Position numbers and translations under genes: made by a program. DNA of 63,106 bases, counting the filler, from Chiloscyllium plagiosum (lineage: Eukaryota): the NCBI RefSeq assembly GCF_004010195.1. It is 7 parts of 7 records of this genome, joined end to end, with 100 filler letters (N's around TTAATTAATTAA, not from the genome) between each part and the next. Parts side by side here need not be neighbours in the genome. Positions count along the whole stretch, not along the records: positions 1 to 3,911 come from NW_025203317.1; 6 more parts are not named here. One strand, given 5' to 3'. Within the stretch, counting starts at the first letter, position 1, and every line of letters begins with the position of its first letter. The notes under the pieces were generated by a model. The model had not been told where the DNA came from, did not search any database, and saw only the letters and a list, made by a program, of their open reading frames with translations. Below are positions 1 to 55,552 of the stretch, one piece after another.

Positions 1-1139
1 CTTAATCATTAATACTGAAAGCGCCTCTGTGGCAATAGAGAACATACCAAGGCGTAGTCAATTCGTGCAGATTTGTGAACATGATTTAAAAAAAAGGAAA
101 GAATTTGAGGCTGTACTGAAGGTTGTACGTAAATCCCTAGCTCCTGTAAAGAAATGTTGCGTTTTTTTTAACAACATTCACCGTGTTACAAGAACATCAT
201 GTCGGTCTTTCAATTCCAACTTTTTTTTGCATTCATTAGTAAAGTGGCTTTTACGCGGCTTTTACCGTTGACATAGCTTGGTTAAATCAAACAGGTGTCG
301 AACAGAAGGAGGTGAACAGTATAAGTTATGAGTTTGAATAAATCTGCTGCAGTTAGTTTAAACGTTTTGCTTGTAAGATCTGGCGCAAGTGCCATAATGG
401 TGTATCATGGGGTTAACAATCACGCATGTTGCTTTACTATTGGTCCGACGCGGGTTCATCTACACCACGACAGATGGTGAAACTGAAGTTTAATCTGAAA
501 AACAAATTGGAGAAGGAAGGCTGGTATAGTGATAACCTTTTAATCAATGTTGTCAAAAATATGCAAAATCTTGTATACTTGTGTCCTCTGACAAAGAAAT
601 TCAAATATACTGCAGCGTCCTCAATGTTTCTCCCGTTTGGAATCGTCACTGGATTCTTTCCTGCCTTTACCTCTCCTAGCTCACATGGTCTTTCCAAAAT
701 CATTCCACCAATTTTTTTTTCCTGCTCTTTCAACCCTAATAATGAAAAATAACTCATTATTTAACTTTCATTCCTATAACCATTTTGATTTCCATTATAT
801 CATCCTCATTGACCTCTGCACCCCAAACACTACTCCAACGTTCAAAACTTATCTCAAACCTCACTGACTCAAGTTCATTGACTCCTCCTTACTTGGAAAT
901 ATCTCTGAATGCGATATTTTTGTCACTTTCCAAAACTGTGAGCACGTTTGCAACAATTTTATGCTGAAACTTCATTAATCAGAAATGAGTTTGAATAAAT
1001 CAAGAATAAACCATGAATTTTCAATGAAACAAAATAAAGAAATTCACAAATGTGCTGCTGACAATTGAATTCCTTCCATCTAGGCTCCCATCACCTCTTT
1101 AGGATTTTAACAGAGAAAACGACCACACCTACATCTCCA

Positions 1140-1560
1140 CCTGTCTTCCACTGTGCAGTTGAAATCGATAGGCCCTACTCATTTTCATTCACCTTATCTC
1201 GTCAGTGTATCAGATTCCCCCAGTCTGGGTGGCTTTACTGTACCCACATGGCTCTACTGGGATAAACTCCCGAACAATTCACCATTGACCACTCATTTCT
1301 CCCTGTTTTACCTCAACAAAGTCATTCAAGGACATGGCATCCGCTCCTACTGAAAGATCAGGCATGCATTTCTAAGTAATCTAATCTAATCTAATCTATT
1401 TGATCACCCCCTCTGTCAAATGTCGCCCTGCCGCTGCACCACATCTCCACCGTTCTCCCAACTCCCGTAACTGCCACAGGTCGGACAACACTGAACTCAG
1501 ACAAGGGTTGTCTCAACTAGAAACCTTCCACGTCATGCCAAAATATTTCAAATTCTCTTG
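1140..1560 (+). mobile_element. Degenerate Penelope-like element, GIY-YIG endonuclease remnant
   Basis: Translation QCIRFPQSGWLY resembles the PLE motif YCIxCxxCGLLYIGET; frames broken. Confidence 0.45.
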
Positions 1561-1760
1561 GTCACCAATCAGACCTGAGCCATCCTCATCTTGCAACACC
1601 TACTTCCGTCCATTTGCCTTAAACAGAACCAATTCATTGAGATTGTCTCAGACACAGAGTCGATGCCTGAATGCACCAGGGAGTCCCAGATGGTTATAAT
1701 TTTTCCACCGATTTTCGCTGGCTGTTGCTGTCTTCCTGCTCGAGATCTTCCCTGCCCAAG

Positions 1761-1815
1761 ATGTCTGTGTTCCACGTGCTGTTCTATCTCTCAGCCTTGG
1801 GAATAATTTATACAG
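1761..1815 (+). CDS. Signal-peptide (leader) exon of a non-rearranging VJ-type IgSF gene
   Basis: ATG 1761 encodes hydrophobic MSVFHVLFYLSALGIIYT; phase-1 donor G|GT at 1815/1816 matches the phase of the next exon. Confidence 0.75.
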
Positions 1816-2008
1816 GTCTATAAATATTGACAGTCATCTAGCGGATAGGAATATGAATGGAAATCCCGGGAACTCAAAACTGGAAGCTTCGTTTTCATGA
1901 TTAGTTATTTGATTTTCTTTCGTTAAGTTTCTTACCCATTATTTTACCTCTTTTCCTTTTTCAGGAGATGAAACATGAACAACTAATGTTTGTGTATATT
2001 TCTGGTAG

Positions 2009-2329
2009 ATACTGGCGAAACCCCTTTGCCTGTGATGCAAATCCCTGCGTGCCTGACTGCAGTGGAAGGTGCAAATGTGTCAATGTATTGCTCCATCCCG
2101 CTTTTCGATCGCACAATATCGGTGGATGTCTCTTGGCGGAAAGATGGGCAGACCAAAACTTTGGACCCAACAGCAGACACAAGGAAAACAATATTACCGT
2201 TCAAGCAAGCATCTGCTGAATTCCATCTGTTGAATGTGAGCTTCCGGGACTCCGGAATCTATTACTGTAGCATCAGCGTCTTCGGCAGGAAGGCTTCCAA
2301 TGGGAATGGGACTAAGCTTATCGTACACG
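2009..2329 (+). CDS. Single-exon germline-joined VJ-type Ig V-set domain (NCR3/NKp30-like non-rearranging receptor family; exact family unresolved)
   Basis: AG acceptor 2007-2008; B-strand Cys (MYC), C-strand Trp (VSW), DSGIYYC and J-like GNGTKLIV in one exon; phase-1 donor G|GTGAGT at 2329/2330; no RSS. Confidence 0.85.
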
Positions 2330-3459
2330 GTGAGTGTCACTGAGGAGAAATGGACAACGTTAAATTAGGCAGGTTTCCATCGATAGCAGATAACAAGAGC
2401 AGCACGGTGTCTGCTAATAGTTTGGTGCCGCAATGCAAGCTTGTTTTTTTTTCAGTTCAAGGAGACTTAGACCGAACTTGTGCTGGTGTACATCAGACTT
2501 GCCGTCCGCGGTCAATCAAAGCTAGCCAAGCCGTGTAATGTATTTAATCTTGTTTTATATCGACTATTTAAAATAAGATAAGTTATCCTAAATAATGCTC
2601 CACTTGATTTAGGTAGCCATCGGAAATGAAGTGCATTAGATTTGTCATGGAGTTCAACGTGGAAAGAAGTGTTTTTCTTTTAAAGGGGTAAATGTCAGGT
2701 TTTCAAAATCGATTATCAAATAGGTGCAAGTGATCATAAACGGATACAGCTACAGCACGATGTGAGTAATGCACAACGAGAGCAAATAATTATCCTCCAG
2801 AAGAGGAACAGGTTTTAGGAAAACATTCCTATGCAAACTAATGTAGAACGAATTATTAAATGCTGTCTCAGAAATGACGTGCATCCTCACACTGTCTGGT
2901 TGGAATATTAAATACTTAGAAGTGCTCACTGAAAGTTTTCCTGAGAAGCAGAGAGGATTATTTGGACTGCTTCTATAGTAAACTTGAAACTGGAACTGTA
3001 CTTACGCTGCTTCCAAGTATGATTTTGAGGAGGTGTTTACGTTTACTTCGAGATTAAATTCACAGGGATATATTTATTTTGGTTAATCCCCAATTTTGTT
3101 TGCAACTGTTGATAAATATATGCATTCCTCATTGTTTGAGACTCATCTTTAAGTCCTGATTTTAAGAAGTGGGTAAAGTTTACTGAACACTTTACCTCGT
3201 TATGTTGATACAACCAGTCTACCGACATGAAGTCGCAGTATGGAAATATTTATGAACAGTGATTTTTTCTGAATACTGGATAGGTCCTCGAGGCACTTGT
3301 TCAAGTCTGTGCACCAGCTTCAAATGAAACTGGCGTGTTTTGTAAAGCAACTCAGCCTTTGAAATGGGTAATGGCATCATCAATACCAGATGTTGGCGTG
3401 GGATTGCAACAGGATTTTGTCAATTGAAAATGAGGTTTGGAGGCATGAAGCAAATGATC

Positions 3460-3911
3460 AATGAGAAAATGGCTCAAAGGTAGAAAACAGAGGGTGATCA
3501 TGGAGGGTCGCCTTTCAGACTGGATGCCTGTGACCAGTGGTGTGCCACAAGGACCGGTGCTGGGTCCACTGCTTTTCGTCATTTACATAAATGACTTGGA
3601 TGTTAACATAGGAGGTAAAGTAAGTAAGTTAGCAGATGATATCAAAATTGGAGGTGCCGTGGACAGCAAAGACGGTTACCTCAGAAAACAACAAGAACTT
3701 GATCAGATTGGCCACTGGGCAGAAGAGTGGCAGATGGAGTTTAATTTGACAAATGTGAGGTCCTACATTTTGGAAAAGCAAATCAGGGTAGAACTTATAC
3801 ACAGAATGGGAACGTCCTGGTAAATGTTGCTGAACAGAGACCTTGGAGTGCAGGTTGATTGGTGAGGCCACATTTGGAATACGGTGTGATCTCCTTCCTA
3901 TCGGAAGGATG
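3460..3911 (+). mobile_element. CR1-type LINE reverse transcriptase fragment
   Basis: WLKGRKQRV...GVPQGPVLGPLLFVIYINDL...KLADD...WQMEFN, RT motifs typical of CR1. Confidence 0.9.
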
Positions 3912-5622: not shown

Positions 5623-6799
5623 TGTTTCGGGGGTGGAAGGTCACTGTAATGAAGTGACAGGGGGACGTGTTGTCTAAATGCAAAGCTTGGAGTCTGGCAA
5701 AATGGTAGGTTGTAAAGCAGAGATGCGAAAGGAGCTAGGATGCAATGTGCACAGGTTGGCTTGGGTAAGATGAGAGGTCAGTGATCAAGGACTGAGGTCA
5801 TGTGGGCTTTTGTCAGAGGTTGTGAAAATGATGGTGCCAGGTCCAGTCAGGGCCAGATTCACCATGGGCCAGGTGCAGGGCGGCAGGAGTGTAAATGAGT
5901 GAAAGGAATTGAGATCATATGTCCATCTGGAATATAGAATATAGAACATNNNNNNNNNNNNNNNNNNNNNNNNNNNNNNNNNNNNNNNNNNNNNNNNNNN
6001 NNNNNNNNNNNNNNNNNNNNNNNNNNNNNNNNNNNNNNNNNNNNNNNNNNNNNNNNNNNNNNNNNNNNNNNNNNNNNNNNNNNNNNNNNNNNNNNNNNNN
6101 NNNNNNNNNNNNNNNNNNNNNNNNNNNNNNNNNNNNNNNNNNNNNNNNNNNNNNNNNNNNNNNNNNNNNNNNNNNNNNNNNNNNNNNNNNNNNNNNNNNN
6201 NNNNNNNNNNNNNNNNNNNNNNNNNNNNNNNNNNNNNNNNNNNNNNNNNNNNNNNNNNNNNNNNNNNNNNNNNNNNNNNNNNNNNNNNNNNNNNNNNNNN
6301 NNNNNNNNNNNNNNNNNNNNNNNNNNNNNNNNNNNNNNNNNNNNNNNNNNNNNNNNNNNNNNNNNNNNNNNNNNNNNNNNNNNNNNNNNNNNNNNNNNNN
6401 NNGGGTAGGGTTTGTCAATGTGAGTGGAAATTTAGGTCAAGGCAGAGTAAGTGCAGTGGTTAGTCTGTAAGATGAGGTTTGGTGGTGAACTGCGTGTCAG
6501 TTTGATAGTTATTAAAGTTAAAGATTACTTGTTCATTTCTCAAATCATATTTACATAAATACTCAGCTGTAACACTCCAAAGTCTCTGAACCTTAATGGT
6601 CCTCCATTTTTCAGAGGCATCCAGAATTCAGATAATTGTAAATTAGATGTTTCAACTTCCAGCCAATTGGCATGAGTTCAGCCGTGACAGCCATCCTCCT
6701 AGTCCCAGTGCTCAGCTCCTGCCTGTGCTGCTGCTGCAGAGACCTCCCTCCCAGTGAGAACATTCTGCCTTACATTGATAAGTGAGGAAGGCTCACTGG

Positions 6800-7475: not shown

Positions 7476-8475
7476 ATTTCGATGAATCTGCATTTCCTTG
7501 GTTTGTATTTTGTGAAACGTCTCTGTTCTTCACAGCAATCCAGTGAAAGTGTCAGTTGGTGAGATCTTCAAACAGTTACTGGAGTGGGATCAGGATGTTC
7601 TTCTTCCTAAATTATATGGTAATGGTCAACGTCGAGGGCATGTTTCTAAAGAGGGAACCAATGATCATGATCAGCAACTGGAAGGAAACAAAAATAAACT
7701 CCAGTTATGCTGTAGGCTTCAGCGGGAGCATACTGGCAAACGTTTACAGCTGAGGATACATTTGAGTAACTGATAAGGTCAAATTAACAGAAACTAACAT
7801 GCTCAATTGGTCATTCTATTGTAGAGACACCATCCTGCCTCACAGTGCTAGGGACTCGGGTTCCATTCCAGCCTCTGGTGACTGTCTGTGTGGAGTTGGC
7901 ACTTTCTCCCCATGTCTGTGTGCGTTTCCTCCCACACTCCAAAGATGTGCAAGCTGGGGGAATTGCAAATGTTGTGTTCAGTGATTGGGATTTTAGGCGC
8001 ATTAGCCAGGGTTAACTGTATCATAATAGGGTAGGGGAATGGGTCTGGATGCGTTACTTTTCAGAGGGTAGGTGTGGACTTGTTGGGTCAAATGGCCTGT
8101 TTATACACACTGTAGAATTTCGATGAATCTGCATTTCCTTGGTTTGTATTTTGTGAAATGTCTCTGTTCTTCACAGCAATCCAGTGAAAGTGTCAGTTGG
8201 TGAGATCTTCAAACAGTTACTGGAGTGGGATCAGGATGTTCTTCTTCCTAAATTATATGGTAATGGTCAACGTCGACGGCATGTTTCTAAAGAGGGAACC
8301 AATGATCATGATCATCAACTGGAAGGAAACAAAAATAAACTCCAGTTATGCTGTAGGCTTCAGCGGGAGCATACTGGCAAACGTTTAGAGCTGAGGATAC
8401 AATTGAATAACTGATCAGGTCAAATTAACAGAAACTAACATGCTCACTTGGTCATTCTATTGCAGAGACACCATC
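7198..8475 (+). repeat. ~640-bp tandem duplication (SINE + pre-Cmu1 intron + first 10 nt of Cmu1)
   Basis: ORFs at 7543 and 8184 are near identical (offset 641); copy 1 ends TAG|AGACACCATC at 7834. Confidence 0.9.
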
Positions 8476-8771
8476 TCCCCCCACGCTTTATGGCCTGGTC
8501 TCCTCCTGTCAGGAGCACAACACCGGTTCTGTGATCTTTGGTTGTTTGGCGAAGGATTATTCCCCTGACGTCACCAAGGTAACTTGGAAGAAAGGTGGGG
8601 AGCTAATCAAGACTGGATTGAAGACTTATCCATCAGTGAGAAACAAGAAGGAAACCTACACCCTGAAAAGCCAGTTAACCCTGCCCGAGTCAGTGGTAGA
8701 TTGCCCCAGCAAAACCTACTATGAGGTTCAACACAGCGGGTCACACAAGAGCAAAGTTATGCCATGTCCAG
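8466..8771 (+). CDS. IGHM: IgM CH1 exon (second Cys lost)
   Basis: TPSPPTLYGLVSSC...FGCLAKDYSP...TWKK...GLKTYPSV...SQLTL; AG 8464-8465, donor G|GTAAC 8771; TAT at 8720-8722 where the paralog has Cys. Confidence 0.9.
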
Positions 8772-8829
8772 GTAACAGAGATAAACAGATCATCTGTGAT
8801 TAACATGAATAAGGCATTATTTAGAACAG

Positions 8830-9400
8830 TTTTCACAGAATCACCTTATACAGCACAGGGAAAAGGCCAATTGATCCACCCAATTCATGCCTATCAATAA
8901 CAGCCACCTAACGATTCCAGTCTCATGTGCCAGCACATGATCCATTGCCTTGTTGTCTTGCCCTTGCAAGGATACTTCATACTTATTATGAGGGGCTCAG
9001 TCTCTACATGACTTGTAGGTGCTGAGCTCCAGGCTAACACCACCTTCAGTTTGATTTAGTTTTCCCCTGAGATCCACTTGGAACCTCCTGGCCTGACCTT
9101 CACAATGTGCGCCTGAGGCATTGATCTCTCCATCAAGGGGAAAGTTTTCATCCAGTTTACCCTGTCTATGGCTAAAATGATTCTAGACATCATGATAATC
9201 TTCTCTCCAATTCTCCTCTGCTTCAAGGAAAAGCCCTGTTTATCTAATCTAGTTTCATAACTAAAACCCTCCAACCCAGGCAAGATCCTGGCAAATCTCA
9301 TCAATACTGCCTTCAGTGTAATCACATTCCTTCGATGACATGCACACAACGCTTCAGTATGGCCTAACCAGTGTTTTATTAAGTTCCCGTATCATCTCAC
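8830..9400 (-). mobile_element. CR1 LINE 3' fragment in the CH1-CH2 intron
   Basis: Minus ORF FARILPGLEGFSYETRLDK; a similar element follows the other CH1 (19933-20420) in the same relative orientation. Confidence 0.7.
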
Positions 9401-10530
9401 CACTATTCATTGTCAATGTCTAGGCTAATAAAAGCAAATATCCTCCCACTTTCTTAGCCTCTTTATCCAGACGACACAGTACTATAGGGGATCGCTGGAT
9501 ACATGCACCAAAGATCCTCAGGCCTTTCCAGGGTTCCACCATTCCAAACTTCATACCTCACAGATTCTTCTGCCGAATTCCATCACCTTACATTTATCCA
9601 GAATAATTTCCATTTGCAACTTTTCTCTTCACATACAACCAACCCTTTTATATCCTCCTGCAATCTAAAGCCATTATGCTAATGACTTACCAACATGACA
9701 GCTTTCATTTCATCTATGAATTCACTAGTTAATCCTCCTAAATTTGAGTCTCAATCATTGGTATGTAAGAGAAATAGCAAGGAAATCAACACCAATCCCT
9801 ACAGAACACCAGGAGATATAGATTTCCAGTCATGCAGACACCCGACGACTGTTATCCCCTGCTCCCACCACTCAGCCAGTTCTAGATCTAATCTATCAAA
9901 TTAACTCGGGTCCCATTGGCTCTGATTATTGCTATCATCTGGACATCGAGTTATCTCTCTGAAAACTATGATCAAATTGTTACACATGACTTCCTCTCAA
10001 TAAAACCGTGCTGAAAATTGTTGAATTAACTTCCAAATGAAGACTAATTGCACTTCTCAATAGTTTCCTTACCACTGAGACTAGCTTGACAGATCTATGG
10101 TTTCATTATTTATCCCTTCCTTCGTCCTGCATAACAGTGCAACGTTGGCTGATCTCCACTCACTTGGCACAACTGCTGCGGCCAGACAGGAATTCTAAAT
10201 TATTGTCAGCGACCCAACTATTTCATCCTTTGCATCGTTCAACAGCTTGGTATACTTTTCATCTGCCCTGGAAATATAACCACTTTTCATTCAGCAAGAC
10301 AACACAGAACATCACGTCATGTGTCCTAATTTCTGAAAGCACATCACAACACCCCTCAATGATTTCTGTCCCCACATTGTCCCTCTTACAGTGAACACTG
10401 ACACAACACATTCGTTTTGACCACAACCTAATCCTCCGGCTCCACTCCAATAATAACACTTAATGGGCATTACTGTTTCCCGAATAATTCTTTTATTATA
10501 AATGAGCCTGTAACTTTTAAAAATATATTC

Positions 10531-11938
10531 CTTTATTTTGACTGCTATTATTTTCTCATGGTCCCTTTTGCTCTTCTCATTCCTTTGTCTTTCAAACTCC
10601 TCCTTGCACATTCTATACTCCCTATTAGTTTCTATTGTTTTGAGATTTCAGTATAGACCGGAAGCCTCCCTTGTTTCTCTTTATCTCCCCCTCCATGCCC
10701 TTTGGTGACCAGAGCCCGCTGCATTCTTAGTCCCACGCAGTGGCTTCCTGGGAAATGTCCTCCCTTTGAATTTCCTATCTCTTTCTTAAATGTGTCACAC
10801 TGCTCTGACTCAGATTTACCAATAAGTGTCAGCTTCCAGTACACTCTGGTCGAGTCATTACCTGATCTTATTAAAACTGTCTTTCCCCTTTTCAGAACGT
10901 TGGGCCAATTTCTATTCCTTTGCAGTACAATGTGAAATCTAACTGATTTACGATCACTGTCTGCAAAGTGCTCCACCATTGATATTTTACCCACTGCGTC
11001 GACTTCATTCCCTAAAGTTAAGTTCAGGTTCACCCCTCACTTGCAAGGTCTGGATTAAAATTCTCTGTATTAAACACATACTTTGTGCAAATATTCTTCT
11101 GGGGGCATTTTCAGAATTGTGCTTCCTCTACATTTTTGACAAAATGAATATCCAAGCCTATGCTGAGGAAGTTAAAAACCTCTTTTCTCATTCCCCTATT
11201 TAATTTACACGTCTCTAAAATTTGCCCATNNNNNNNNNNNNNNNNNNNNNNNNATGTTGACTGCTATTATTTTCTCCTGGGCCCTTTTGCTCTTCTAACT
11301 CCTTTGTCTTTCGAACTCCCCCTTGCACGTTCTGTACTCCATATTGTTTTGAGATTTCAGTACAGACCAGAAGCCTCCCTTGTTTCTCTTTATCTCCCCC
11401 TCCATGCCCTTTGGTGTCCAGAGCCCGCTGCATTCTTGGTACCACGCAGTGGCTTCCTGGGAAATGTCCTCCCTGTGATTTTCCTATCTCTTTCTTAAAT
11501 GTGTCACACTGCTCTGACTCAGATTTACCAATAAGTGTCAGCTTCCAGTACACTCTGGTCGAGTCATTACCTGATCTTACTAAAACTGTCTTTCCCCTTT
11601 TCAGAACGTTGGGCCAATTTCTATTCCTTTGCAGTACAATGTGAAATCTAACTGATTTACGATCACTGTCTGCAAAGTGCTCCACAATTGATATTTTACC
11701 CACTGGGTCGACTTCATTCCCTAAAGTTAAGTTCAGGTTCACCCCTCACTTGCAAGGTCTGGATTAAAATTCTCTGTATTAAACACATACTTTGTGCAAA
11801 TATTCTTCTGGGGGCATTTTCAGAATTGTGCTCCCTCTACATTTTTGACAAAATGAATATCCAAGCCTATGCTGAGGAAGTTAAAAACCTCTTTTCTCAT
11901 TCCCCTATTTAATTTACACGTCTCTAAAATTTGCCCAT
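10531..11938. repeat. ~700-bp direct duplication flanking a small N gap (LINE-derived)
   Basis: ORFs 10702/11411 and 10979/11688 nearly identical, offset 709; gap 11230-11253. Confidence 0.85.
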
Positions 11939-12569
11939 GTATTTGCACTTGGTCTTTTGGACCTATAGTAAGGTCTGTCGTGCTCTCCCAGTATTATGTT
12001 TGCTGTATTTTGGTTTTGAAGTACTGTCCATTTGCCTTTGTTTGAGGAGGTATCCATGATTTCATTTCTCTTTACAGCCTAAAATACTCTTGTCAGAATT
12101 GCGACAGAAGCAACAATCTGTACCGCACATCCCCGTCCCCATCCTTTTCCATCTTTCCCTGTCTCGCCTGAAGGCACTAAATCCTGGAATGTTGAATAGC
12201 CACTCTTGCCAGGTTCTTAATATGTCTCCGTGATAGCAACCGCATCATTTCCTCATTTATGCCGGTAATTCGTCTGCCTTATAATCAGACTCTGTCATGA
12301 AAACGAATACCATCCAACGTTGCTATCTCCCTTCTGATGTTACCGGCCTATAGTTTCCATGCGTCCTTGACTCCCTTGCTGTGTCCTCTAAGTTTAGCCT
12401 TTCACATTGTCCTGCTGATCTTTCTGTGTGGATCCCAGCTTCTCCAGCACTCTGCACAATTATGATTCTTGTATCCATTAACCACAAGAAACCTTGATAT
12501 ATGAGAACTGATTGTATTTGTTATGAAATTCGTCGCATAATATATGCGATGTGTTTCCTAACGGTCCAG

Positions 12570-12875
12570 ACATTCTCCCACCAACTCTTCTCCTAACTGT
12601 GAGCTCCAGTGACGAAATCGCAAGCAGCAAGTTTGCAACCGTCGTCTGTTCAATCATCGAGTTCCATCCGAAGTCAATTTCCGTGAGTTTGTTGAAAAAT
12701 GGCCTACCCTTGGATTCTGGCTTCTTCACGTCTCCCGTGTGTGAGGCAAACGGGAACTTCTCGGTGACGAGTCGGCTGATGGTCCCTTATGGTGAATGGT
12801 TCAACAGTGCGGTCTACACCTGCCAGGTCACCCTTGGAGAGAACATTCAAAGTAAAAACATCACCGCACTCCAGG
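12570..12875 (+). CDS. IGHM: IgM CH2 exon (core Trp>Leu)
   Basis: [14 protein letters not shown]...FATVVCSI...[15 protein letters not shown]...EWF...VYTCQV; AG/GT phase 1; TTG at 12689-12691 in SVS[L]LKNG. Confidence 0.9.
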
Positions 12876-14570
12876 GTAAGAGACACAGACTGAGAGAGCT
12901 ACAAATCACTCTGAACTGTGATGTGAATCAAACACACTAATTCATCAGGCGTAGTAAACAGCACGGTACAGTTTCTCGTTTCTCAACGTGCCGCGTATCT
13001 CATTTCATTTTGAGTGTTCCATTAGCATTGCTCATAATTCAACATTTTGGCAAGTCAGAAAAACATGTTTCCTCTCTGTTGAAGATGGATATATAGACAG
13101 TGAGCTTTGTTAAATAGTTTGTTGCCTCACCATGCTGGGAGCGGCATTCACAGTGCTGAATCCTTGCCTGGTAGCCGCTTCAAGGATAAGTGTGGGGGTG
13201 GAGGGGGGCTTTGGGAGAGATAACTGATTGAAACATAGAAAACACTGAGAGACTGAGGTCGAGTGAACGTGCAATAGGTGTTTTGACTGGTAGGTAAGAC
13301 TAGAACCTAAGCGCACAGTCTCAGGGTCAAAAGGGCACCGTTTAGAACTGAGATGGGGAGGGATTTCTTCAGCCAGAGGGTGATGAGTCTGTGAAACATG
13401 TTGCTGCAGAGGGCTGTGGAGGCAAGGCCATTGTGTGTATTCAAGCCAGAGATAGACCTGCTCTTGTTTAGTACGGGAAGAAGACAGTAGAATGGCTTTA
13501 GCCCGACAGGTCGATTTTCCGGCTCGTCGGATGCTGCCTGACCTGCTGTGCTTTTCCAGCATCATTCTGATCTAAACTCTGGATTGGCCGAACAGCCTTA
13601 TTCTGATCCTCTATCTTATGATGTTGTGGTCTCAAAATGACGTGGTTAAAATATGCAGGGACCCTTACTTGAAAATAAATCAAAATGCGTTCAATGCTTC
13701 ATTCCCTGCTCAGGAATGACCTGTTGGCCTTGGACACTGTACGACATCGATTTCTATCTGGTACTGAGCTCTTTAACTTCATTTATGGGATCAAACCACA
13801 GATCAAGTGGGTATCACATTTGATGAACTGGGGTAATCGTGATCTCACTGAGCTTCTTTAAGATGCTCTCTGTAATTAGTGGATGTGGCAGGAGAATAAA
13901 GTCTGGTAAGAATGCTACAATAGGAATGAATGAACTAGGAACTCGAGACAGGCTGATTTAGCCTGGTTTGGGGTGGTGATGTTTACACATTGAGTAGTGG
14001 ATATCTATAAAATTAGTGCACATTTCAATCGCATTTGTAGATTAATTTAAGACGCTTTTGTTTGTTTTTACCGCTCCTGTAACACTTTAGAACTCTGTAA
14101 AGAGAATAATTATTATTTATTATAATCTGTCCAAAATTTGGGATGTGATTTGGCAGTCAGTGTGACCAGCAGCACTTGCACCTAAAGGTTATGAACATGG
14201 AAATGAACTCATTATATTCAGATTACTCTTGTCACAAGTATCAATAGATGGTCTTAAGTGAGAGTCAAACTTCGAAAGAAAGATAATTCCATGGGTTACA
14301 TGATGGTATCTTCGATGATTTTACTTTTTTCACAGGTTTTGCTTGTTACAAAGCCAGTGTTCTTTCGGAATAATTACACAGGGGATGTCATAGGTAATCA
14401 CAAATGCTTTCACAGATCAAAATACATCAACAATGGTAAGCATCGTTTCAGCAATAGTTGGAATTGCCATTTTGAAGGTGGTGTCTTCACACTGTGTCGA
14501 AGTAATCTGAAGATTGGCTGTTTGTATCAGAAAGGGGCATTTTTCATTGACTTTGAATTTTGTTTCATAG

Positions 14571-14879
14571 AAGATACCGAGTGCCACGCCAACACCGTTA
14601 ATATCCTCCCACCGCCAGTAGAACAAGTCTTACTGGAGGCGACGGTGACGTTAACCTGCGTTGTGCCCAATCTTCCTTCTGGAGTCAGCGTGACCTGGAC
14701 ACAAGAAAAGAAACCTGTGAAATCAGAGATTGCTGAGCAGCCTGGACAGAATTCCGAAAGCGTGATCAGCAAATTAGACATTTCGACAGAAGCCTGGCTG
14801 AGTGGCGTTACTTTTGAATGTTTGGTGAACCATCAGAATCTATCGACTCCGCTGAGAGACTCCATCCACAAGGAGAAAG
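14571..14879 (+). CDS. IGHM: IgM CH3 exon (intact frame)
   Basis: [21 protein letters not shown]...VTWTQ...[21 protein letters not shown]; AG 14569-14570, donor G|GTGAG 14879. Confidence 0.92.
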
Positions 14880-15330
14880 GTGAGCGGTGATATTAAAACA
14901 CAAAGCATTCCATGTGTAATCCAGATCCAGTTACATCAATGACAGGCTTTGAATGGTAATGAACAAATACCGTTAGGAGCATTAATGATGCATCTGAAGG
15001 CAGGATAGCTAGGTAGCTGCTTAAGAAAAAGATGGACCAAAGGATATTGTATTCTGATTAAGTCAGATAAGGTGGGAAGAAGCCTGGGTTGTGACGTCAC
15101 CATCAGCAATGACAGTTGGACAGAATGCTGTTGTTGTGGGCTGGAAACATGGAGGCGACTTTCACATTAAACTTTTTTTTTACTGAACAGAATGTGTACC
15201 ATACTGCTCCTTTAGAAAACGAAAGTGAATAAATCCCAAATTAAACATGACGTATTTTAATATTTAGTGAAATTGTGATATTGGTTCAGGATTTTTTGGT
15301 TGATTTATATTTGTCTCAAATATTCTGCAG

Positions 15331-18480: not shown

Positions 18481-20524
18481 GCGATTTCTTCACTGCGACG
18501 CACGATCAGAAGAAGAGTTGTTGGAGAAGTGGACCTTTATGAAAAACATCATATAAATTATCTGACAAATTTGATTAAAAAAATACATTCAGTTCTTATG
18601 TAACAAAGTGAGTTGTGGTTAATAGATACGAACCTTGATATTACAACCATCATATTTGTCCAGAGTGCTATAGAAGCTGAGATCAACACAGTACAATTAG
18701 ACGGGCGATGTGATAATGACAATGTAATGCTAAAATTAGAGGTCAGAGCAAGGAGGTCAAGAAGGTACAAAAATGATGGGCCAGTTTAATCAGAGGGAGA
18801 GATAGCAAGTTTGGATGGTATTCATTTTAACGAAAGGAGTATGATAAACAATGCTGATGAGTTAACGGCATAAATGAGGAAGTGTGCAATTGATATCATG
18901 GAGACATGCTGCGAGAGGGGCAAGAGTGGCAGTTCAATAGTCCAAATATAATGCCTTCAAGTGAGACAGGGAAAAATAAAGATGGAGTGGAAACGGTGAA
19001 GATTGTTAATGTTCACCAGTGTGAGGGAATAAGTGGACATAGAAAACATTGTGAAGTGTTGTGATTTTTTTCAGAAATTAGGATAGGTGATGTGATGTGC
19101 TGTGTTGCTGGATGAAAAAATAGTAATATTTCCAGGGCAGATAACATGTATGCCAAGCAAAGGATGAAATAGTGGGTGGCTGGCAATAAGTTATAATTCC
19201 TGGCCACCTAGGGATATGGTAAAACTGCCAATGTGGTATTGTTATGCAGGACAGACGAAGAGAAAAATCATGAAACCACAGGCTCGGCTCAAGCTCGGCT
19301 CTGTACTAGGGAAGACATTGTAACTATGGAGAGGGGAATTAACCTTCATCTGGAAGGTTAATCAACAATTCTCAGCACGATTTCATTGAGCAATTTGATG
19401 TTAGTTTTCGAAGAAGTAAGTCGATTTCCAGATGATAGTAAAGATCAGAGCCAGATGAGATCAAGTTAATTTGACGAATTGAACCCTGAGTTAGCTGAAT
19501 GGCGGAGTGCAGAGGGTAATGGTCATAGAATGTTTGTGTGGATGGAAGTAAATGTCTAGTGGTGTTCTGCAGGGATCAGTGTTGATTTATTGATATTTCT
19601 ATTATGTAAAATCGATTTAGAATACAATGCAGGAGATATGGCCATTAAGTTCACAGATGAAACGAAAATTGCCGTGTTGGTAAGTAGTNNNNNNNNNNNN
19701 NNNNNNNNNNNNNNNNNNNNNNNNNNNNNNNNNNNNNNNNNNNNNNNNNNNNNNNNNNNNNNNNNNNNNNNNNNNNNNNNNNNNNNNNNNNNNNNNNNNN
19801 NNNNNNNNNNNNNNNNNNNNNNNNNNNNNNNNNNNNNNNNNNNNNNNNNNNNNNNNNNNNNNNNNNNNNNNNNNNNNNNNNNNNNNNNNNNNNNNNNNNN
19901 NNNNNNNNNNNNNNNNNNNNNNNNNNNNNNNNTATAGGACTGCATGTTATGGAAGGAATGTGATTAGACAGAAGGCAGCATTATTGAGATTTTCCAGGAC
20001 TTTTCCTGGGCTGGAAGTTTTTAAGTTATGGAATGTCATTAACCAAACTGGGGTTTTACTTGGAGCAGAGAAGAATGAGAGAGATGATGATTGTGATGTC
20101 TAGAATTACGGTAGACATATACATAGTAAACAGGACAAATCCCTTTCCCCTTAATGGATGGAGCAATGTCTCAAGGGCATAGGTTTACGGTAAGGACAGG
20201 AGGATATTGGGGAAACCAAAATCACACAGAGTGTGTGAATCTGCAGCTCAGTGTGAGTCAGTCTTGAAGAGGCTAGGCACCGCATAACATGTGAGAAATA
20301 TGCAGATGCACATAAGAAATGTCAAGTCACACAAAGCAATGCATCAATTGCGGATATACTGGACTGGAATAGTTAGGGGGTTGTTATTGGTAGGCGTGGA
20401 CTGAATTGACCTCAGGAACTTTTCCTGTACTCTATATCTCGATGACGATGTCAAATATATTATAACTAATGACCTATTCATGTTAACCACAGGTGTGCTG
20501 TTCACCTCAGTTCCTACAAGATTT

Positions 20525-20826
20525 ACATAGCATTCCAGTGCTCTGCTTTGACCCGCTGTGTTGAACCTCACAGGAGAGTTTGCTGCAATCTGCGTCTGAC
20601 TCAGGCAGGGTCAACTGGCTGCTCAGGGTGTAAGTTCCATTGTTGTTCCTCACGGATGGATAAGTCTTCACTGCAGTCGTGATTGGCACACCACCTTTCT
20701 TCCAAATCACCTTGGTAACGTCAGTGTTATAGTCCATGGCCAAACAACCAAAGATCACAGAACCGTCAGTGTTGTGTTGCTGACAGGAGAAGACAAGTCC
20801 ATAAAGTTTGGGGAAAGATGCAGTCT
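20525..20826 (-). pseudogene. IGHM: Second IgM CH1 exon (open frame, acceptor degenerate)
   Basis: [32 protein letters not shown]...IWKK...LSCEVQH; both Cys and Trp intact; position equivalent to the acceptor reads TTG|AG, not CAG|AG; donor unclear. Confidence 0.8.
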
Positions 20827-21084
20827 CAAGGATAGCATGACCAGTTGAGCAAGTTAGTTTCTGTTAATTCGACCTTATTGGTTACCCAAATATTTCTTCA
20901 GCTGTAAATGTATACCAGTGTGTTCCTGCTAAAATCTTTAGTATACCTTGAATTTATTTTAGTTTCCAATCAGTCGTTGATCATGATCTATTGGTTCCCT
21001 CTTCAGAAACATGCCCTCTACCTTGACCATTACTATATAATTTAGAAATAGGAACACCCTGATCTGACGAAGAGTAACTGCTGA

Positions 21085-28132: not shown

Positions 28133-29239
28133 ATGTTTGCAGCTTGTTCGCTGCATCTCCTGTTATTGCTGCTCCCAGGTAACCTTCCTGACTCGGTGAT
28201 CTATTTAAGTTTGTCTTAAGCCGCTTTTGGGGCAAGAGATGAATTTCTGACAGTCAGGTCTTTGAAAGTTTCCTTCTTGTGTATTCTTTTTATAAAAGAA
28301 CACAGGTTGGTCTGATATTAGAATGAAAGTAGCAATGTAAATTTTCTAATAAGCAGGCACTATGCCGACACCAGTGAGTGGCTGAGGTCATTCACTCTCT
28401 CTCCGTAACAGGAAAATGTCCTGTCTCAGTAAAGCGGGCGGAATTCAATGTGTGTAAAATTTGGGAAATCGAAAGCTACACCTGCGTCCCCGCAAGCAAT
28501 CAGCATTGCAGCCAAACTTGGCAATGAAGAATCTGCGCCAGTGTTGCTCTGCTGTAATTGGGTGTGCAGAAAACTGCAGCTCTGTATGAGTGTTGAATAA
28601 TGTGTTGCTGGGAAAGCGCAGCAGGTCAGCCAGCATCCAAGGAGCAGGAGGATCGACGTTTCTGGCATAAGCCCTTCTTCAGGAAGAAGGGTTTATGCCT
28701 GGAATGTCAATTCTCCTGCTCCTTGGATCTGCCTGACCTGCTGCGCTTTTCCAGCAACACATGTTTCAGCTCTGATCTCCAGCATCTGCAGTCCTCACTT
28801 TTTCCCTTTGTATGAGGGTGTCAAAAAGTTGACCGTTTGTGTGGGGAAGTTCCTAGTTCTTTTGGTAGAAATTGCCCCTCAGTATTGATAGTAAACAATT
28901 GAAATTTAATCCTGTCTGCTGTCCCGTCTCTCCTCAGCTGGATGCAGAAGTACTATCGTCTCCCAATTGGAAAAACACTTGTCTGTTGGAAAAGGGAAGA
29001 TGGTGGAAATGCATTGTTTCCAAGAAGGTACGAGCAATAGCTACATGTACTGGTACCGCCGTTACAAAGGAGCAGGCCTGCAGCTCATAATTACCTCCGC
29101 TTTCGGCACTGAACCCACGCCTGAAGAGGGCTTCAAGAAGAGGTTTGAAGTCACCAGAACCAGTCAAAAGTCGTGCAGCCTGAAAATTCAGAGCTTGGTG
29201 CCAAATGATACTGCAATCTATTACTGCGCTGCTAGTGAT
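28133..29239 (+). CDS. TRBV: TCR beta-type V gene segment 1 (leader 28133-28178, V exon 28938-29239), intact
   Basis: Leader MFAACSLHLLLLLP G|GTAAC; V: EMHCFQ...YMYWYR...[11 protein letters not shown]; phase-compatible splice sites; 23-RSS follows. Confidence 0.85.
28601..28806. mobile_element. Inverted (palindromic) Penelope-like terminal repeat inserted in the TRBV1 leader intron
   Basis: 28601-28680 is approximately the reverse complement of 28684-28761; absent from the homologous TRBV2 intron. Confidence 0.75.
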
Positions 29240-29278
29240 CACAGTGATTCGAACAGGCATACAGCTGGATCAAAAAGC
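29240..29278 (+). other. 23-RSS of TRBV1
   Basis: CACAGTG-23nt-TCAAAAAGC. Confidence 0.92.
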
Positions 29279-31264
29279 TCCTCGCCTCGAGTGATTGGGT
29301 GAGAGCCGCTGGCTGGTTTTAATGAGCTTGTCATTGATACAGACGTCCAACATGACGTCATAAGGGGACAAAATAAATTCTCAGGAGGAATTGATCGTGT
29401 CATGGAGATCGACAGCATGGAAGACTCTTCAACACATTGTGCACACGCCAGTCAAAAAACAAACACCTAAGTATTCTGAGGAAGACGAACTCAGTCTATT
29501 CGGTCTTACTTCATTTTCCAGCACTTTTCCATTAGCTTCGCATTTCTTGATATCTCAAGTGCGCACCAAATAATTGTTTAATGTAATGGGGAAACCTTAC
29601 AGCCAATGATCTCCTTACTCCCCTCACCAATTGTATGAAAGAAACGTTTCTTCACATCTCCACTAAATCTCCTGCACTTCCCTTTAAATTTTGGCCGCTT
29701 TTATGAACCCTCCATTTCGGGAAAGCGCCTCCCTGTCTGTGCTGTCTGTGCCACTCATTAACGTATACATCTCAGTCCTGTCCGTTCACAGTCTACCCAT
29801 TGTTTTTTCAAAACATCCTTCCTTTTATTCCTCCGGTAGTAAATGTTATTCTCGATTCAGCTCTCTTATCTCCTCCTTGTTACAGCACTTGGGCAATTGA
29901 GGTGCCAGTCTTACAATTAAGCATTAATGTGCTGGCTCCTGCTCTTGATAACTTCGGAATTATGTTGAGGTTGCTCATGTGTAATGGCCAGTGTAGTTCG
30001 TGCGCTTATGCAGAATGACACATTAGCTGAGAAGAACATGTGTGTTTGTCATAAAGTAGTTTCGAAGTGACAGCACATGCAGAAAAATATGTTTATTATT
30101 GAAAACTCGATTCTGATTACTTTCTCCATTTTATCCCACGTCCTCGCACGCCCCAACGGTGGTAAATGCTTGCTGATCATACACTTTTGACCCGTCTTCT
30201 CAAGACAATCAATTTTCTCAATTCATCACTGAGAAGTTGCAGTCTTGCTCTTAGTGTCTGGGTGAATCAATGAAAAAAAAAACTTTGTCAATATTCATTG
30301 TTAATTGTCTTGATTCAGAGTGAGCAGAGAACAATAAAAATATATGTTGCTTCTTCAGCACACTTATGACTCTTTTAGAGAAACAACTGTATCCCAACCT
30401 CTGAGCCAGCTTTCAAGGTTTACATTACTCAGAAGTGTGTCATGACATCTTTCAGCAGGTTGATTAGACGGAATGAATGAGGAGTACCCCTGTGAAGCTG
30501 TGTTCATGTCCCTACCTCTCACTGAGAAACACTGAGGTCATCACACACCTGCTCCAGAGCTCTGCAATGCCATCTGTCAGCGTAACATAACTTTAAACCA
30601 ATCAAAAAACGATATGCATCTGAAAATCTGTAGATTCAGCCACAAGGACGACCATGTGCTATTGCCAAAAACAAGGTTTCCTCTCAATGGATAAGTTATG
30701 TTACCAAAATATATATTATTCATAAAGGCCATATGCGTATAAATAGTTCTCAAATAATTCTATACGTTTTTGTACAGAGGGAAACTATTAGGAACTCATT
30801 ACAATTTGACGTCTCTCAGACTGCCCCTGCAGTTTTGCAAACAGACGCATTTTCGCACGTGCAGGTGGGAAAAGAATGGGGTTGATAACTGAGTAGACCC
30901 TCTTCAGAACAGTTCGCCGAAACTAACTTTCTGAAATGCAAAACGGAGTGATGCGGCTTCTTAAAAACAATTACTCAGTTCTTTTTAGGTGAGATGATTC
31001 ACTTTTCCCCAAATAAAACTGGGCACATGTGAATCATTCCAATTGAAAAAAAAAACCTGCAGGTTCAGCAATAGCGTTCAACTTCCATGACGAACTTGTG
31101 GGTCACTTACCGATGTATTCAATGACATGTGCTTTCCTCCAGATGGAAATGAAGGAGGTCTATTGGACTATCTTACGATGATGTCATATCCAGAGCTGAG
31201 TATTAAATCCGGCGACAGGGCGAGATAATTTGCAGTATGTGAGAGCTGTATGAAGTTGTAAGAA

Positions 31265-32150
31265 ATGATGTTCGGTGCTTATTCTCTGCATATCCTGTTA
31301 CTGCTGCTCCCAGGTAACCTTGAAACCTTGGCGAACACTTTGAGTCAGTCGTTTATTCGCTGTTGATGCCGAATTTCTGTCAGACAGATGATTTGCAAAC
31401 TTTCGTTTCTTACTGTTCACTCTCTCGATGGCAAAGAAATAGAACGGTCTGATAACAGAATGGAAGTGACAGTGCCCAGCTTCCAAATAATGACGCACAA
31501 TGCCCACACTAGTGAGCGGCTGAGATCACAAACTCTCTCACAGTAATGGGGATATGCCATATCTTATTAAAGTGGGAGGATGTTGAAGTTTGTGCAATGT
31601 GGAGACATGAAGGCACACCTGCGTCCCCGCAAGCAATCGGCATTGCAGCTAAACTTGAAAATGAAGAGCTTGCAGCACTTTTTCTCCTCTGTTACTGTGT
31701 GTCCAGGAAAGTGCGGCTCTGTCTGAGGATGTCTGTGTCAAACAACTCTGAGGGAAAAGTTCCTGTATCGGTTTATTCTAAATTGCCTCTCAGTACTGTC
31801 TGCAAATATTTGAAACTTGATCCTATCTGTTCTCCCGTTTCTCCTCAGCTAGCTGCATGAGCGCCCTCGTCTCCCAACTGGAGAACCACTTGTCTGTTGG
31901 AGAAGGGAAAATGGCGGAGATGCACTGTTACCAAAATGACACTAACGAAAGCTATATGTACTGGTACCGAAATCAGAGAGGAGCAGGTCTGGAGCTCATA
32001 GTAACCTCCATTTTCGGTTCTGATCCCACGCTTGAAGAGAGTTTCAAGAAGAGGTTTGAAGTCACTAGAGCTAGTCAGAAGTCGTGCAGCCTGAAAATAC
32101 AGAGCTTAGTGCCGACTGATACTGCAGTCTATTTCTGCGCTGCTAGTGAT
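31265..32150 (+). CDS. TRBV: TCR beta-type V gene segment 2 (leader 31265-31313, V exon 31849-32150), intact
   Basis: Leader MMFGAYSLHILLLLLP; V: EMHCYQNDTNESYMYWYR...DTAVYFCAASD. Confidence 0.87.
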
Positions 32151-32189
32151 CACAGTGTTACCACCAGGCTCGGAGCTGGGTCGAAAACC
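32151..32189 (+). other. 23-RSS of TRBV2
   Basis: CACAGTG-23nt-TCGAAAACC. Confidence 0.92.
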
Positions 32190-34711: not shown

Positions 34712-35481
34712 ATGTTCAGTGCTCTTTCTCTGCATCTCCTGCTTTTGCTGCTCCCAGGTTGCCTCCCAGCGAACGAATTGAGCCAATCTTAATCTGTATT
34801 TGGTGTCGCCGACAAACTTTATCCAGTCGGATCATTTGAAAGTTTCGTTCTTGCTTACTTTCTTAAAACAAACGCAGAACTGTCTTGTTGCGAAATGAAA
34901 GTGTCCACGCTTAACTTTCAAATAACAGGGCGCAATGCCTACTCCATTCTTTCTGTCCACAATGAGAAATTCCATGTGTTGCTGAGGCTGGCAGATTTTG
35001 ATCAGGTTAGAATGTGGGAAACCGGAGAACACATCTAGGATTCCACAACAAATACCATTTCAGCCAAACGTAGCGAAGTGGAGTGTGCCCCAGTGTTTCA
35101 CGGCCATGACTGTGTGATCAGAGAAACGCAGCCCTGTCTAAGGATATCTGTAGTTATTCATACAGTTGAAGTTTGACCATGCCGATTCTTCCATTCTCCT
35201 CAGCTGGCTGCAAGATCGCTCTGATCCTACAGTGGGGGAACCGCTTCTCTGTTGGAAAAGGGAAGACAGTGGAGATGCACTGCTACCAAAACGACACAAG
35301 CCAGTACAGAGCAGCAAGTCTGCAGCTCATAGCAACCTCCGCTGCTACCTCAGAGCATACATTCGAAGAGGATTTCAAGGCAAGGTTGAAAATTATGATG
35401 CGCAATACGAAGTCATGCAGCGTGAAAATTCTGCAGCTGCAAGTGTCCGATACTGCGCTTTATTTCTGTGCTGCCGGTGAT
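34712..35481 (+). pseudogene. TRBV: TCR beta-type V segment 3 (leader 34712-34757, V exon 35204-35481); open frame but 8-codon deletion removes YMYWY incl. core Trp
   Basis: CYQNDTSQYRAASLQLI vs TRBV2 CYQNDTNESYMYWYRNQRGAGLELI; ends DTALYFCAAGD. Confidence 0.82.
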
Positions 35482-35520
35482 CACAGAGACACAAACAAGT
35501 GCAGGGCATTTGCAAAACCC
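35482..35520 (+). other. 23-RSS of TRBV3
   Basis: CACAGAG-23nt-GCAAAACCC. Confidence 0.85.
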
Positions 35521-35919
35521 TCACAAGTGGCTCAACTGTAAGCAGCCAGATTGGGAAGCACGAGTGGGCAACGCTCACAAATGCATCCGCACCTTATTGA
35601 AGATTTCACCCTTTCCACCATCAAATCACCGTGACAATTTTCACCCATTAATCCCGAGAATTAAATTTCTTGTGTTTCCAATTGTTGAATTAATGCACAT
35701 TAAGGGCAGACTCATAACACCAAAGATAAATCGGTCCGGTGATGTTGCTGTTATGACCCTCCCTCTGATTCAGGATGCCCCAATTCATGTCATACCTACT
35801 CAAGTCGTATGTTGCAGCATCTTTCAATAGTTAGATCGAGGACAAAGATCAGGTAAGGCATTCTCCTCACGGTATGGTGCTCATCAGATCTTCGAAAGCG
35901 TCAAGAGTGTTGGTGGAAT

Positions 35920-55513: not shown

Positions 55514-55552
55514 TGTTTTTGAATGGGTCCAGCCCTGGTTCCTCTCGCTGTG
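55514..55552 (-). other. 23-RSS of VH
   Basis: Minus: CACAGCG-23nt-TCAAAAACA. Confidence 0.9.

What the first reader, a model, noticed from the sequence alone, without database searches (positions are those of the whole stretch)
1761..2329. Non-rearranging, germline-fused VJ-type Ig domain with an unusually short C'-C'' region
Seen: a leader exon splices in phase to one exon holding the whole V domain plus a J-like G strand (ASNGNGTKLIV). There is no RSS or intron between YYC and the GxG motif. Only 43 residues lie between the core Trp and the second Cys, versus 51 in the TRBV segments of this window. There is an extra Cys in the A' region (QIPAC) and three N-glycosylation sequons (NVS, NVS, NGT). 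Known: single-exon VJ domains ending in GNGT are typical of NCR3/NKp30 and related non-rearranging receptor-like genes (e.g. shark NCR3 family, UrIg, PRARP), discussed as relics of the pre-RAG ancestor of antigen receptors; a shortened C'/C'' region is the hallmark of VNAR. Inference: this could be an undescribed shark VJ-IgSF family with VNAR-like compaction, not a plain NCR3 ortholog.
Basis: partly seen in the sequence, partly recalled or inferred. Interest (0 to 1): 0.72.

Follow-up and report, generated by a model that had tools for sequence, protein, structure and literature searches.

The report
Compact-domain shark paired immune receptor
This exon encodes the outer, antibody-like but non-rearranging domain of a shark cell-surface receptor from a family of about 40 clustered gene copies that likely act as immune brakes and accelerators; the domain is predicted to be as compact as shark nanobodies, and its nearest relatives found are likely unstudied receptors of turtles and snakes rather than antibody ancestors.

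Summary
Beyond the window the VJ exon continues into a C1 exon and a transmembrane exon; the four exons translate to RefSeq model P0002. Of 47 genome matches to the domain, 44 are family V exons, 38 in clusters on C17. Relatives in sharks, rays and chimaeras have four-tyrosine inhibitory tails or Arg-bearing membrane segments with short tails: a paired-receptor family. The short Trp-to-Cys span (38-44) is family-wide. An AlphaFold model lacks C'/C'' strands and best matches VNARs at 18-24% identity, so likely convergence. V and C1 trees keep the family apart from NCR3-like, SIRP, UrIg2 and Ig/TCR domains. C17 carries FTO; no Ig exon lies in 290 kb around NSFL1C, the SIRP neighbour. The nearest V domains and activating membrane segment found are in turtle and viper multi-V receptors, perhaps on the homologous chromosome; the sister group is statistically unresolved. 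This gene's tail and expression were not seen. The scan found this family before in other genomes and filed it near SIRP; the reptile link is the addition. Three key papers were unavailable.

The parts
1761..1815 (+). Leader (signal peptide) exon, coding part, phase-1 donor
   Evidence: matches residues 1-18 of RefSeq model P0002
1816..2008 (+). 193-nt intron; holds a second, stronger-looking acceptor at 1964 whose use would give a stop four codons in
   Evidence: the same upstream acceptor is seen in the two near copies L009 and L010, not in L011/L012
2009..2329 (+). Single-exon VJ-type Ig domain, no RSS inside
2050..2052 (+). Extra, apparently unpaired Cys at the start of the A' strand; shared by 5 of 8 near paralogues examined (this gene included), Arg in 2 of the other 3 and in the closest other-shark homologues P0004/P0008; likely an Arg-to-Cys CpG transition
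   Evidence: the mutational route is inference
2134..2268 (+). Core Trp to second Cys, 43 residues between; residues 45-58 of the domain carry no beta-strand in the model (C'/C'' absent)
2299..2325 (+). J-like G strand with GxG and a sequon; lacks the Phe/Trp that precedes GxG in true J segments (J consensus as quoted in PMC11599192)
2330..3911 (+). Start of the V-C1 intron (with a LINE reverse-transcriptase fragment near 3458-3823, name recalled). The gene goes on outside the window on G000:C89912: C1 exon 6199-6480, TM exon 8241-8354; the scaffold ends at 8400

Best explanation
The exon is the outer VJ domain of a V-C1-transmembrane receptor gene in a large cartilaginous-fish gene cluster, and this copy is likely an inhibitory member of a paired-receptor family that would bind a cell-surface ligand through its compact domain and would signal through tail tyrosines. 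Shown: exon structure leader-VJ-C1-TM, an uncharged membrane segment of the class found in ITIM-bearing relatives, about 40 clustered V exons, a near-identical (92%) V in a neighbouring opposite-strand gene with an Arg-bearing membrane segment and short tail. Inferred from established paired-receptor biology (SIRP, NITR, KIR/LILR): tyrosine phosphorylation recruits SHP-1/SHP-2 and damps leukocyte activation on meeting a self ligand; the Arg-type twin signals through an ITAM adaptor (FcR-gamma/CD3-zeta type more likely than DAP12 because the Arg sits at the outer end of the segment; recalled rule) and counters pathogen mimicry; duplication and gene conversion keep the twins' V domains alike. 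The VNAR-like loss of C'/C'' is predicted and is probably convergent. The ligand is unknown.
For: Four exons translate without a stop to P0002. 44 family V exons among 47 matches: 19 at C17:68.9-70.7 Mb, 18 at 61.5-62.3 Mb, 1 at 57.5 Mb, 6 on small contigs, 7 of 44 with an internal stop. In the fetched C17 stretches V exons are followed by same-strand C1 exons, with both membrane classes present. Among 104 fetched family proteins (isoforms included) 84 have a membrane segment: 48 were classed ITIM-tailed, 9 Arg/short-tail, 27 neither, many truncated. Tails carry four tyrosines spaced 23/13-14/23, in register with bird SIRP-alpha. Members in sharks, rays and chimaera. Our V is 96% identical at DNA level to the Arg-type gene at C17:68.92 Mb, with 8 amino-acid-changing and 2 silent codon differences. 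Our C1 and TM are 97% and 99% identical to a plus-strand gene there whose V falls in an assembly gap and which has downstream tyrosine-motif exons. Family V clade 98/91 (bootstrap/SH-aLRT), C1 clade SH-aLRT 97. Model pLDDT 88.7, no strand between C and D (same in a sevengill-shark homologue); VNARs fill ranks 1-11 in the structure comparison, Z 14.5-14.9, rmsd about 1.9 A over 95-98 residues.
Against: This gene's own tail is not assembled (scaffold ends 46 nt after the TM exon). In the nearest C17 plus-strand copy the last ITIM/ITSM exon is out of frame from the adjacent AG acceptor, the TM and spacer exons are duplicated, and RefSeq model P0089 skips that exon, so this sub-lineage may be decaying. 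A strong upstream acceptor at 1964 would give a premature stop, and the RefSeq model of the near copy P0003 starts at an internal Met. VNAR structural scores are tied within 1 Z with NCAM Ig1, TCR-alpha and antibody domains. No functional, ligand or adaptor data exist here.
Confidence: 0.72

Rival explanations
1. The family is the cartilaginous-fish branch of the SIRP family (one C1 instead of two), moved away from the 20p13-type locus, with a diverged V domain; it would sense CD47.
For: Four-tyrosine tail aligns in register with bird SIRP-alpha (spacing 24/17/26 against 23/13/23). The best non-chondrichthyan C1 scores are lungfish SIRP-like proteins, 47-56 bits. Lungfish SIRP P0135 finds C17 family C1 exons among its top hits and no better SIRP-type V in this genome (a restricted search). 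SIRP-alpha ectodomain 2wng matches over profile positions 25-207. RefSeq labels. AU test does not reject family+SIRP (p 0.23).
Against: Two SIRP V motifs (Gly-Pro before the core Trp; YYC-hydrophobic-basic), chosen by eye from the SIRP rows, are in 9 of 9 SIRP and 0 of 33 family domains. SIRP V scores lowest-but-one in profile comparison. Family C1 lies outside the SIRP clade. SIRP-beta membrane segments do not match the family's activating profile (0.7-2.6 bits). No Ig exon in 200 kb 5' and 90 kb 3' of NSFL1C on C20. The shark tail is built from a repeated two-tyrosine exon, so the pattern can arise by exon duplication.
Confidence: 0.25
2. This particular copy is a decaying duplicate or alternative haplotype fragment of the C17:68.93 Mb gene, mis-spliced or lacking a working tail, although the family is real.
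For: Cryptic acceptor at 1964, out-of-frame last exon in the nearest C17 copy, duplicated TM exons, 7 of 44 V matches with stops, small unplaced scaffold.
Against: Leader, V, C1 and TM are all open with GT-AG sites; the in-frame acceptor has a branch-point-like motif about 23 nt upstream (sequence); RefSeq models the in-frame junction; the last-exon defect is in another copy and may be an assembly error.
Confidence: 0.25
3. It is an NCR3/NKp30-family paralogue (such as the recalled NCR3H or Xenopus XMIV genes) that gained a C1 exon and inhibitory tails.
For: NKp30 is the best-scoring single-V match in the PDB for the domain (E 1e-5); NCR3-like V's are second in profile comparisons (107.5 against 114.9 for reptile multi-V); same G-strand ending; Arg-type membrane segment; AU p 0.25.
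Against: The NCR3-like exons of this genome form their own clade on C37, with a 48-54 span and no C1 exon in the 70 kb fetched around three of them. The papers defining shark NCR3 and NCR3H could not be read.
Confidence: 0.15
4. [quoted passage not shown]
For: VJ-C1-TM is the architecture proposed for the precursor (PMC12227049 Fig. 2 legend); UrIg2 is second in the PDB profile search; VNAR-like fold; AU p 0.15 does not reject family+Ig/TCR.
Against: Ig/TCR V's score lowest (16-34 bits); family C1 is outside the Ig/UrIg2 C clade (SH-aLRT 95); identity to VNAR 18-24%; no Phe/Trp before GxG; ITIM tails; the cluster is on the FTO chromosome, not a recognised MHC paralogon (paralogon list in PMC10751288).
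Confidence: 0.05

Closest known systems
RefSeq-modelled cartilaginous-fish V-C1 proteins (P0002-P0032; auto-labelled SIRP-alpha-like, tapasin-related, NCR3LG1-like, CD276 homolog, uncharacterized)
   Same: Same family; P0002 is this gene, letter for letter.
   Different: Labels are automatic and inconsistent; no paper describing the family was found in the 8 immunology searches run.
Reptile tandem-V receptors (turtle P0074, P0097, P0101, P0147; viper P0156; auto-labelled pIgR-, FCRL5-, NCAM2-, titin-, otk-like)
   Same: Highest V scores (43-62 bits), short span 36-47, same G-strand ending, ITIM-tailed and Arg/short-tail forms; turtle Arg-type segment matches the shark activating profile (18.3 bits, 0 of 200 shuffles); viper protein retrieves family exons in 12 of 17 hits, including the best.
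   Different: Three to six V domains and no C1; two to three tail tyrosines; sister grouping only 58/91 with a long-branch row inside; local gene order not checked.
SIRP family (SIRP-alpha / SIRP-beta1)
   Same: VJ + C1 ectodomain, paired forms, four-tyrosine tail.
   Different: One C1 rather than two; SIRP V motifs absent; different membrane residue; not beside NSFL1C.
NCR3/NKp30 and shark NCR3 family
   Same: Single-exon VJ with similar G strand, about 30% identity.
   Different: C1 exon present, inhibitory tails, shorter C-D region, different chromosome from the NCR3-like exons (C37).
IgNAR V (VNAR)
   Same: Predicted absence of C'/C''; top structural matches.
   Different: 18-24% identity, no RSS or rearrangement, short fixed F-G loop, one C1 and a signalling tail.
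NITR of ray-finned fish
   Same: Clustered germline VJ paired receptors, Arg in activating forms.
   Different: Second domain is a two-cysteine C1, not the six-cysteine I domain; gar/bowfin NITRs lie by runx1/donson.
UrIg/UrIg2 and PRARP
   Same: Non-rearranging VJ-C1.
   Different: UrIg2 has many Ig-type C1 domains and groups with Ig C domains here.

Membership tests
Paired immune receptor family (functional class) | Clustered genes with similar ectodomains and either ITIM tails or a charged membrane residue with short tail | tested here: met
Paired immune receptor family (functional class) | SHP-1/2 recruitment and ITAM-adaptor coupling | not testable with these tools
   needs cell assays
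Paired immune receptor family (functional class) | This copy has an intact ITIM tail | tested here: inconclusive
   scaffold ends after TM; nearest C17 copy has an out-of-frame last exon
SIRP | V + two C1 domains (PMC12975943) | tested here: not met
   one C1 in P0002 and nearly all family proteins; P0037 has a duplicated C1
SIRP | SIRP-type V sequence motifs and clade | tested here: not met
   0 of 33 against 9 of 9; separate clades; a sister relation is not rejected
SIRP | Four-tyrosine inhibitory tail | tested here: met
   family homologues
SIRP | Location next to NSFL1C (recalled) | tested here: not met
   NSFL1C-like and FAM110 on C20, no Ig exon in 290 kb; cluster on C17
SIRP | CD47 binding | not testable with these tools
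   no assay
NCR3/NKp30 | Single-exon VJ domain | tested here: met
NCR3/NKp30 | V joined directly to the membrane segment, no C1 (recalled) | tested here: not met
   C1 exon present
NCR3/NKp30 | Clade with shark NCR3, MHC linkage | tested here: inconclusive
   separate from the C37 exons, but their NCR3 label and C37 as the MHC are inferred, and published sets were unavailable
IgNAR / rearranging Ig or TCR V | RSS-flanked V segment or clear descent from one | tested here: not met
IgNAR / rearranging Ig or TCR V | Loss of C'/C'' strands (VNAR) | tested here: met
   prediction only:
NITR | I domain with six cysteines | tested here: not met
   second domain is C1-set with two cysteines
UrIg/UrIg2 | VJ plus three or more Ig-type C1, grouping with Ig C domains | tested here: not met
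PRARP / tetrapod VJC1 | Sequence clade and synteny | not tested
   no sequences retrieved; the comparative paper was not held
Reptile tandem-V receptors | Sister clade of V domains | tested here: inconclusive
   best of four options (log-likelihood 0.08 below the free tree, against 6.3, 7.0, 19.3) but none rejected
Reptile tandem-V receptors | Same linkage group | tested here: inconclusive
   chromosome-level and indirect

The most novel reading that the evidence does not exclude
The cluster is the shark form of an unnamed, roughly 450-million-year-old paired-receptor locus on the human-16q/chicken-11 linkage group, outside the MHC paralogons, kept as VJ-C1 receptors in cartilaginous fish and as tandem-VJ receptors in turtles and snakes and lost in mammals; its V domain lost C'/C'' independently of VNAR, giving a second natural compact binding scaffold and a candidate missing-self system of shark leukocytes.
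Probability: 0.35. Interest if true: 0.75.

Novelty: new variant of a known kind. Interest (0 to 1): 0.52.

Why it matters
Cartilaginous fish have few described diversified innate receptors, and NITR homologues were reported lacking in them (bioRxiv 2021.06.11.448072). A family of about 40 VJ-C1 paired receptors is a concrete candidate for their self/non-self sensors. Recent papers on antigen-receptor origins treat non-rearranging VJ-C1 genes as rare, MHC-linked relics; a large VJ-C1 family on another linkage group, with possible reptile counterparts, widens that picture. A C'/C''-less V in a germline receptor shows that the VNAR design may have arisen more than once. The single gene is an ordinary, perhaps decaying, member.

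Tried and rejected
Expression: no RNA holder listed. Two single-cell RNA runs of one sample, 2% and 6% read, gave no read on any exon (491 repeat-borne reads and 0): no evidence either way. One contig in run X1 joined C1 to TM at GT-AG, but X1 covers introns like DNA and the short side was 24 letters, so it was not counted. The tail region was not examined with reads. Homodimer prediction of the V-C1 ectodomain: no answer, score 0.05. Third homologue search covered only 789-2250-residue proteins and returned generic Ig proteins. Foldseek on the two-domain model gave generic V-C matches. V-profile PDB search was dominated by multi-domain I-set proteins. ESM Atlas gave only generic V-set clusters, the best named 'putative antigen receptor'. 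C16 and C12 hits of SIRP queries were multi-C1 and CD28H-like genes, not SIRP. The right flank of the 68.9-70.7 Mb cluster (100 kb) was mostly repeats and gave no marker. The 86-row V tree finished only in quick mode. Sea-turtle supplements held none of six search terms; the slider-turtle supplement gave no chromosome sizes. Literature: 8 searches on the family found no description; 2 more were on turtle chromosomes. Janes 2023, Kinlein 2021 and Ohta 2019 (titles recalled; Ohta also seen in a reference list) were not held and may cover these genes; bioRxiv supplements were closed.

Full report
Observation. The first stretch of the pack (1-3911) is G000:C89912:1-3911, an 8.4-kb scaffold; the Ig and TCR stretches beside it in the window are not its neighbours. 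A 55-nt leader exon splices in phase 1 to a 321-nt exon that holds a whole V-set domain with a GxG G strand. No RSS lies inside the F-G interval, while 3 of 3 control V genes of the window show one. The 43-residue span, three sequons and extra Cys are real. The TRBV comparison should read 57, not 51.

The gene. On the same scaffold, beyond the window, lie a C1 exon (6199-6480) and a membrane exon (8241-8354); the four exons translate without a stop to P0002, a RefSeq partial model that its source names an uncharacterized Chiloscyllium plagiosum protein. The scaffold ends before the tail. The membrane segment is uncharged and of the class seen in ITIM-bearing relatives.

The family. The domain finds 47 places in the genome: 38 on C17 (19 at 68.9-70.7 Mb, 18 at 61.5-62.3 Mb, 1 at 57.5 Mb), 6 on small contigs, some perhaps haplotype copies, and 3 weak ones on C37 (lower bounds). 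At C17:68.92 Mb a minus-strand gene with a V 92% identical to ours, an Arg-bearing membrane segment and a short tail stands head to head with a plus-strand gene whose V falls in a gap and whose C1 and TM are 97% and 99% identical to ours. Homologues occur in sharks, rays and chimaera under SIRP-, tapasin- and B7-like automatic names. Of 104 fetched family proteins, 84 have a membrane segment; 48 were classed ITIM-tailed (one of them is really Arg-type), 9 Arg/short-tail, 27 neither (isoforms are not independent). Full tails carry four tyrosines. This is the layout of paired receptors.

The short C'-C'' region. The span is 38-44 in 33 of 33 family domains, against 45-54 in 6 NCR3-like, 45-53 in 9 SIRP, 52-61 in 13 Ig/TCR/UrIg2 and 36-47 in 14 reptile tandem-V domains. 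AlphaFold2 with 72 sequences (pLDDT 88.7) has no strand between C and D. VNARs take ranks 1-11 of 999 chains, Z 14.5-14.9, at 18-24% identity; NCAM Ig1, TCR-alpha and antibody domains are within 1 Z. No VNAR sequence was in my trees, so convergence is inferred from low identity and gene structure.

Relationships. V trees (86 rows quick; 42-row subset careful; near-duplicate domains and loach I-set domains left out) give one family clade (98/91) apart from SIRP (100/98), the C37 NCR3-like set and Ig/TCR. The C1 tree (76 rows, quick) gives a family clade (97) outside the SIRP and Ig/UrIg2 clades. Deep branches are unresolved and AU tests reject no sister option (p 0.15-0.40). By profile score the nearest V domains are tandem-V receptors of turtles and a viper (43-62 bits; NCR3-like 35-44; SIRP 21-43; Ig/TCR 16-34; one unclassified C6 exon 45). 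Those proteins came from a search with the family profile, as did the SIRPs, and shared short length may raise their score. In reverse, the viper protein finds family exons in 12 of 17 hits, including the best by a small margin. The turtle Arg-type membrane segments match the shark activating profile (18.3 and 9.4 bits, 0 of 200 shuffles each); SIRP-beta segments do not; the inhibitory profile does not discriminate (bird SIRP-alpha 12.0, UrIg2 14.4, turtles 10.7-13.2). For SIRP: the tail aligns in register, lungfish SIRP-like C1 domains are the best outside C1 matches, and a lungfish SIRP finds no better counterpart in this genome (restricted search).

Synteny. C17 carries FTO. The clusters are flanked by an amino-acid-transporter and an oxidoreductase gene (Pfam; I read them as SLC38A8 and OSGIN1) and by exons I read as AMFR and a rho-class GST; these names and their place on human 16q / chicken 11 are recalled. 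The SEP-domain gene I read as NSFL1C lies with FAM110 on C20, with no Ig exon in 200 kb on one side and 90 kb on the other. The slider-turtle tandem-V genes lie on a 43,716,676-bp scaffold, the 13th largest (PMC7186784, Table 1 passage). PMC7464131 (passages) equates assembly chromosome 13 with painted-turtle 15, which has a large block to chicken 11, but elsewhere pairs painted-turtle 15 with chromosome 12. That rank 13 is chromosome 13 is my inference, so shared linkage is plausible, not shown.

Mechanism. Shown: architecture, clustering, two membrane classes, tyrosine motifs in relatives. Inferred from SIRP/NITR/LILR biology (PMC12975943 and bioRxiv 2021.06.11.448072 passages; otherwise recalled): ligand binding by the V domain, SHP-1/2 recruitment by the ITIM form, ITAM-adaptor signalling by the Arg form, homogenisation and diversification of V domains (8 changing against 2 silent codon differences between the twins; too few for a selection test). 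Against this copy being functional: a stronger-looking acceptor at 1964 that would stop translation, and an out-of-frame last tail exon in the nearest C17 copy.

Literature seen: PMC12227049 parts 1-2 of 8 and passages; passages of PMC10751288, PMC11599192, PMC6795676, PMC9962930 (supplements searched), and those cited above. None of the passages describes this family. Three likely relevant papers were not held, so absence from print is not established. Earlier notes of this scan describe the same family in other genomes and name SIRP as closest; a word search for the turtle and synteny link found none.

Verdict. Real exon, real and apparently unnamed paired VJ-C1 receptor family, predicted VNAR-like compaction; not NCR3, UrIg or a joined antigen receptor; SIRP remains a rival; a reptile counterpart is the most testable new lead.

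Noticed in passing
window 1935-1964: Pure pyrimidine tract and AG 44 nt upstream of the in-frame acceptor; use would give a stop four codons in. Shared by two near copies.
   Followed up: partly
G000:C17:68,931,984-68,940,183 (L040, L044): Plus-strand sister gene with duplicated TM and spacer exons, a degenerate second copy of the first tyrosine exon, and a last ITIM/ITSM exon out of frame from its acceptor.
   Followed up: partly
G000:C12:51.94 and 52.10 Mb (L227-L237): Two V exons with the EIPPP motif described for chondrichthyan CD28H (PMC11599192), each followed by a C1 exon: CD28H-like genes with a V-C1 ectodomain.
   Followed up: no
G000:C16:32.65-32.79 Mb (L096-L104): At least three genes made of many tandem C1-like exons.
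   Followed up: no
G000:C9:2.0-4.3 Mb (L169, L170): Large cluster of V exons; the two read are germline-joined VJ with a very short F-G loop and group near Ig light-chain-like V domains.
   Followed up: no
G000:C6:14.64 and 111.96 Mb, C1:23.35 Mb, C39:16.58 Mb, C45:12.48 Mb (L180, L188, L185, L186, L177): Further single-exon VJ domains of unassigned families.
   Followed up: no
G000:C37:26.63-26.81 Mb (L089-L095, L184): Four NCR3-like VJ exons, no C1 exon near the three checked.
   Followed up: partly
window 8429-14890, 20507-20863, 28910-35541, 55481-55888, 58260-58688, 61285-62205: Other stretches of the pack hold IgH constant exons, TRBV segments with RSS, an IgHV and IgL constant exons; unrelated to this gene's locus.
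   Followed up: no
proteins P0135, P0141, P0151, P0153, P0164: Lungfish SIRP-like proteins with multi-V or multi-C1 ectodomains; one has an Arg-bearing membrane segment.
   Followed up: partly
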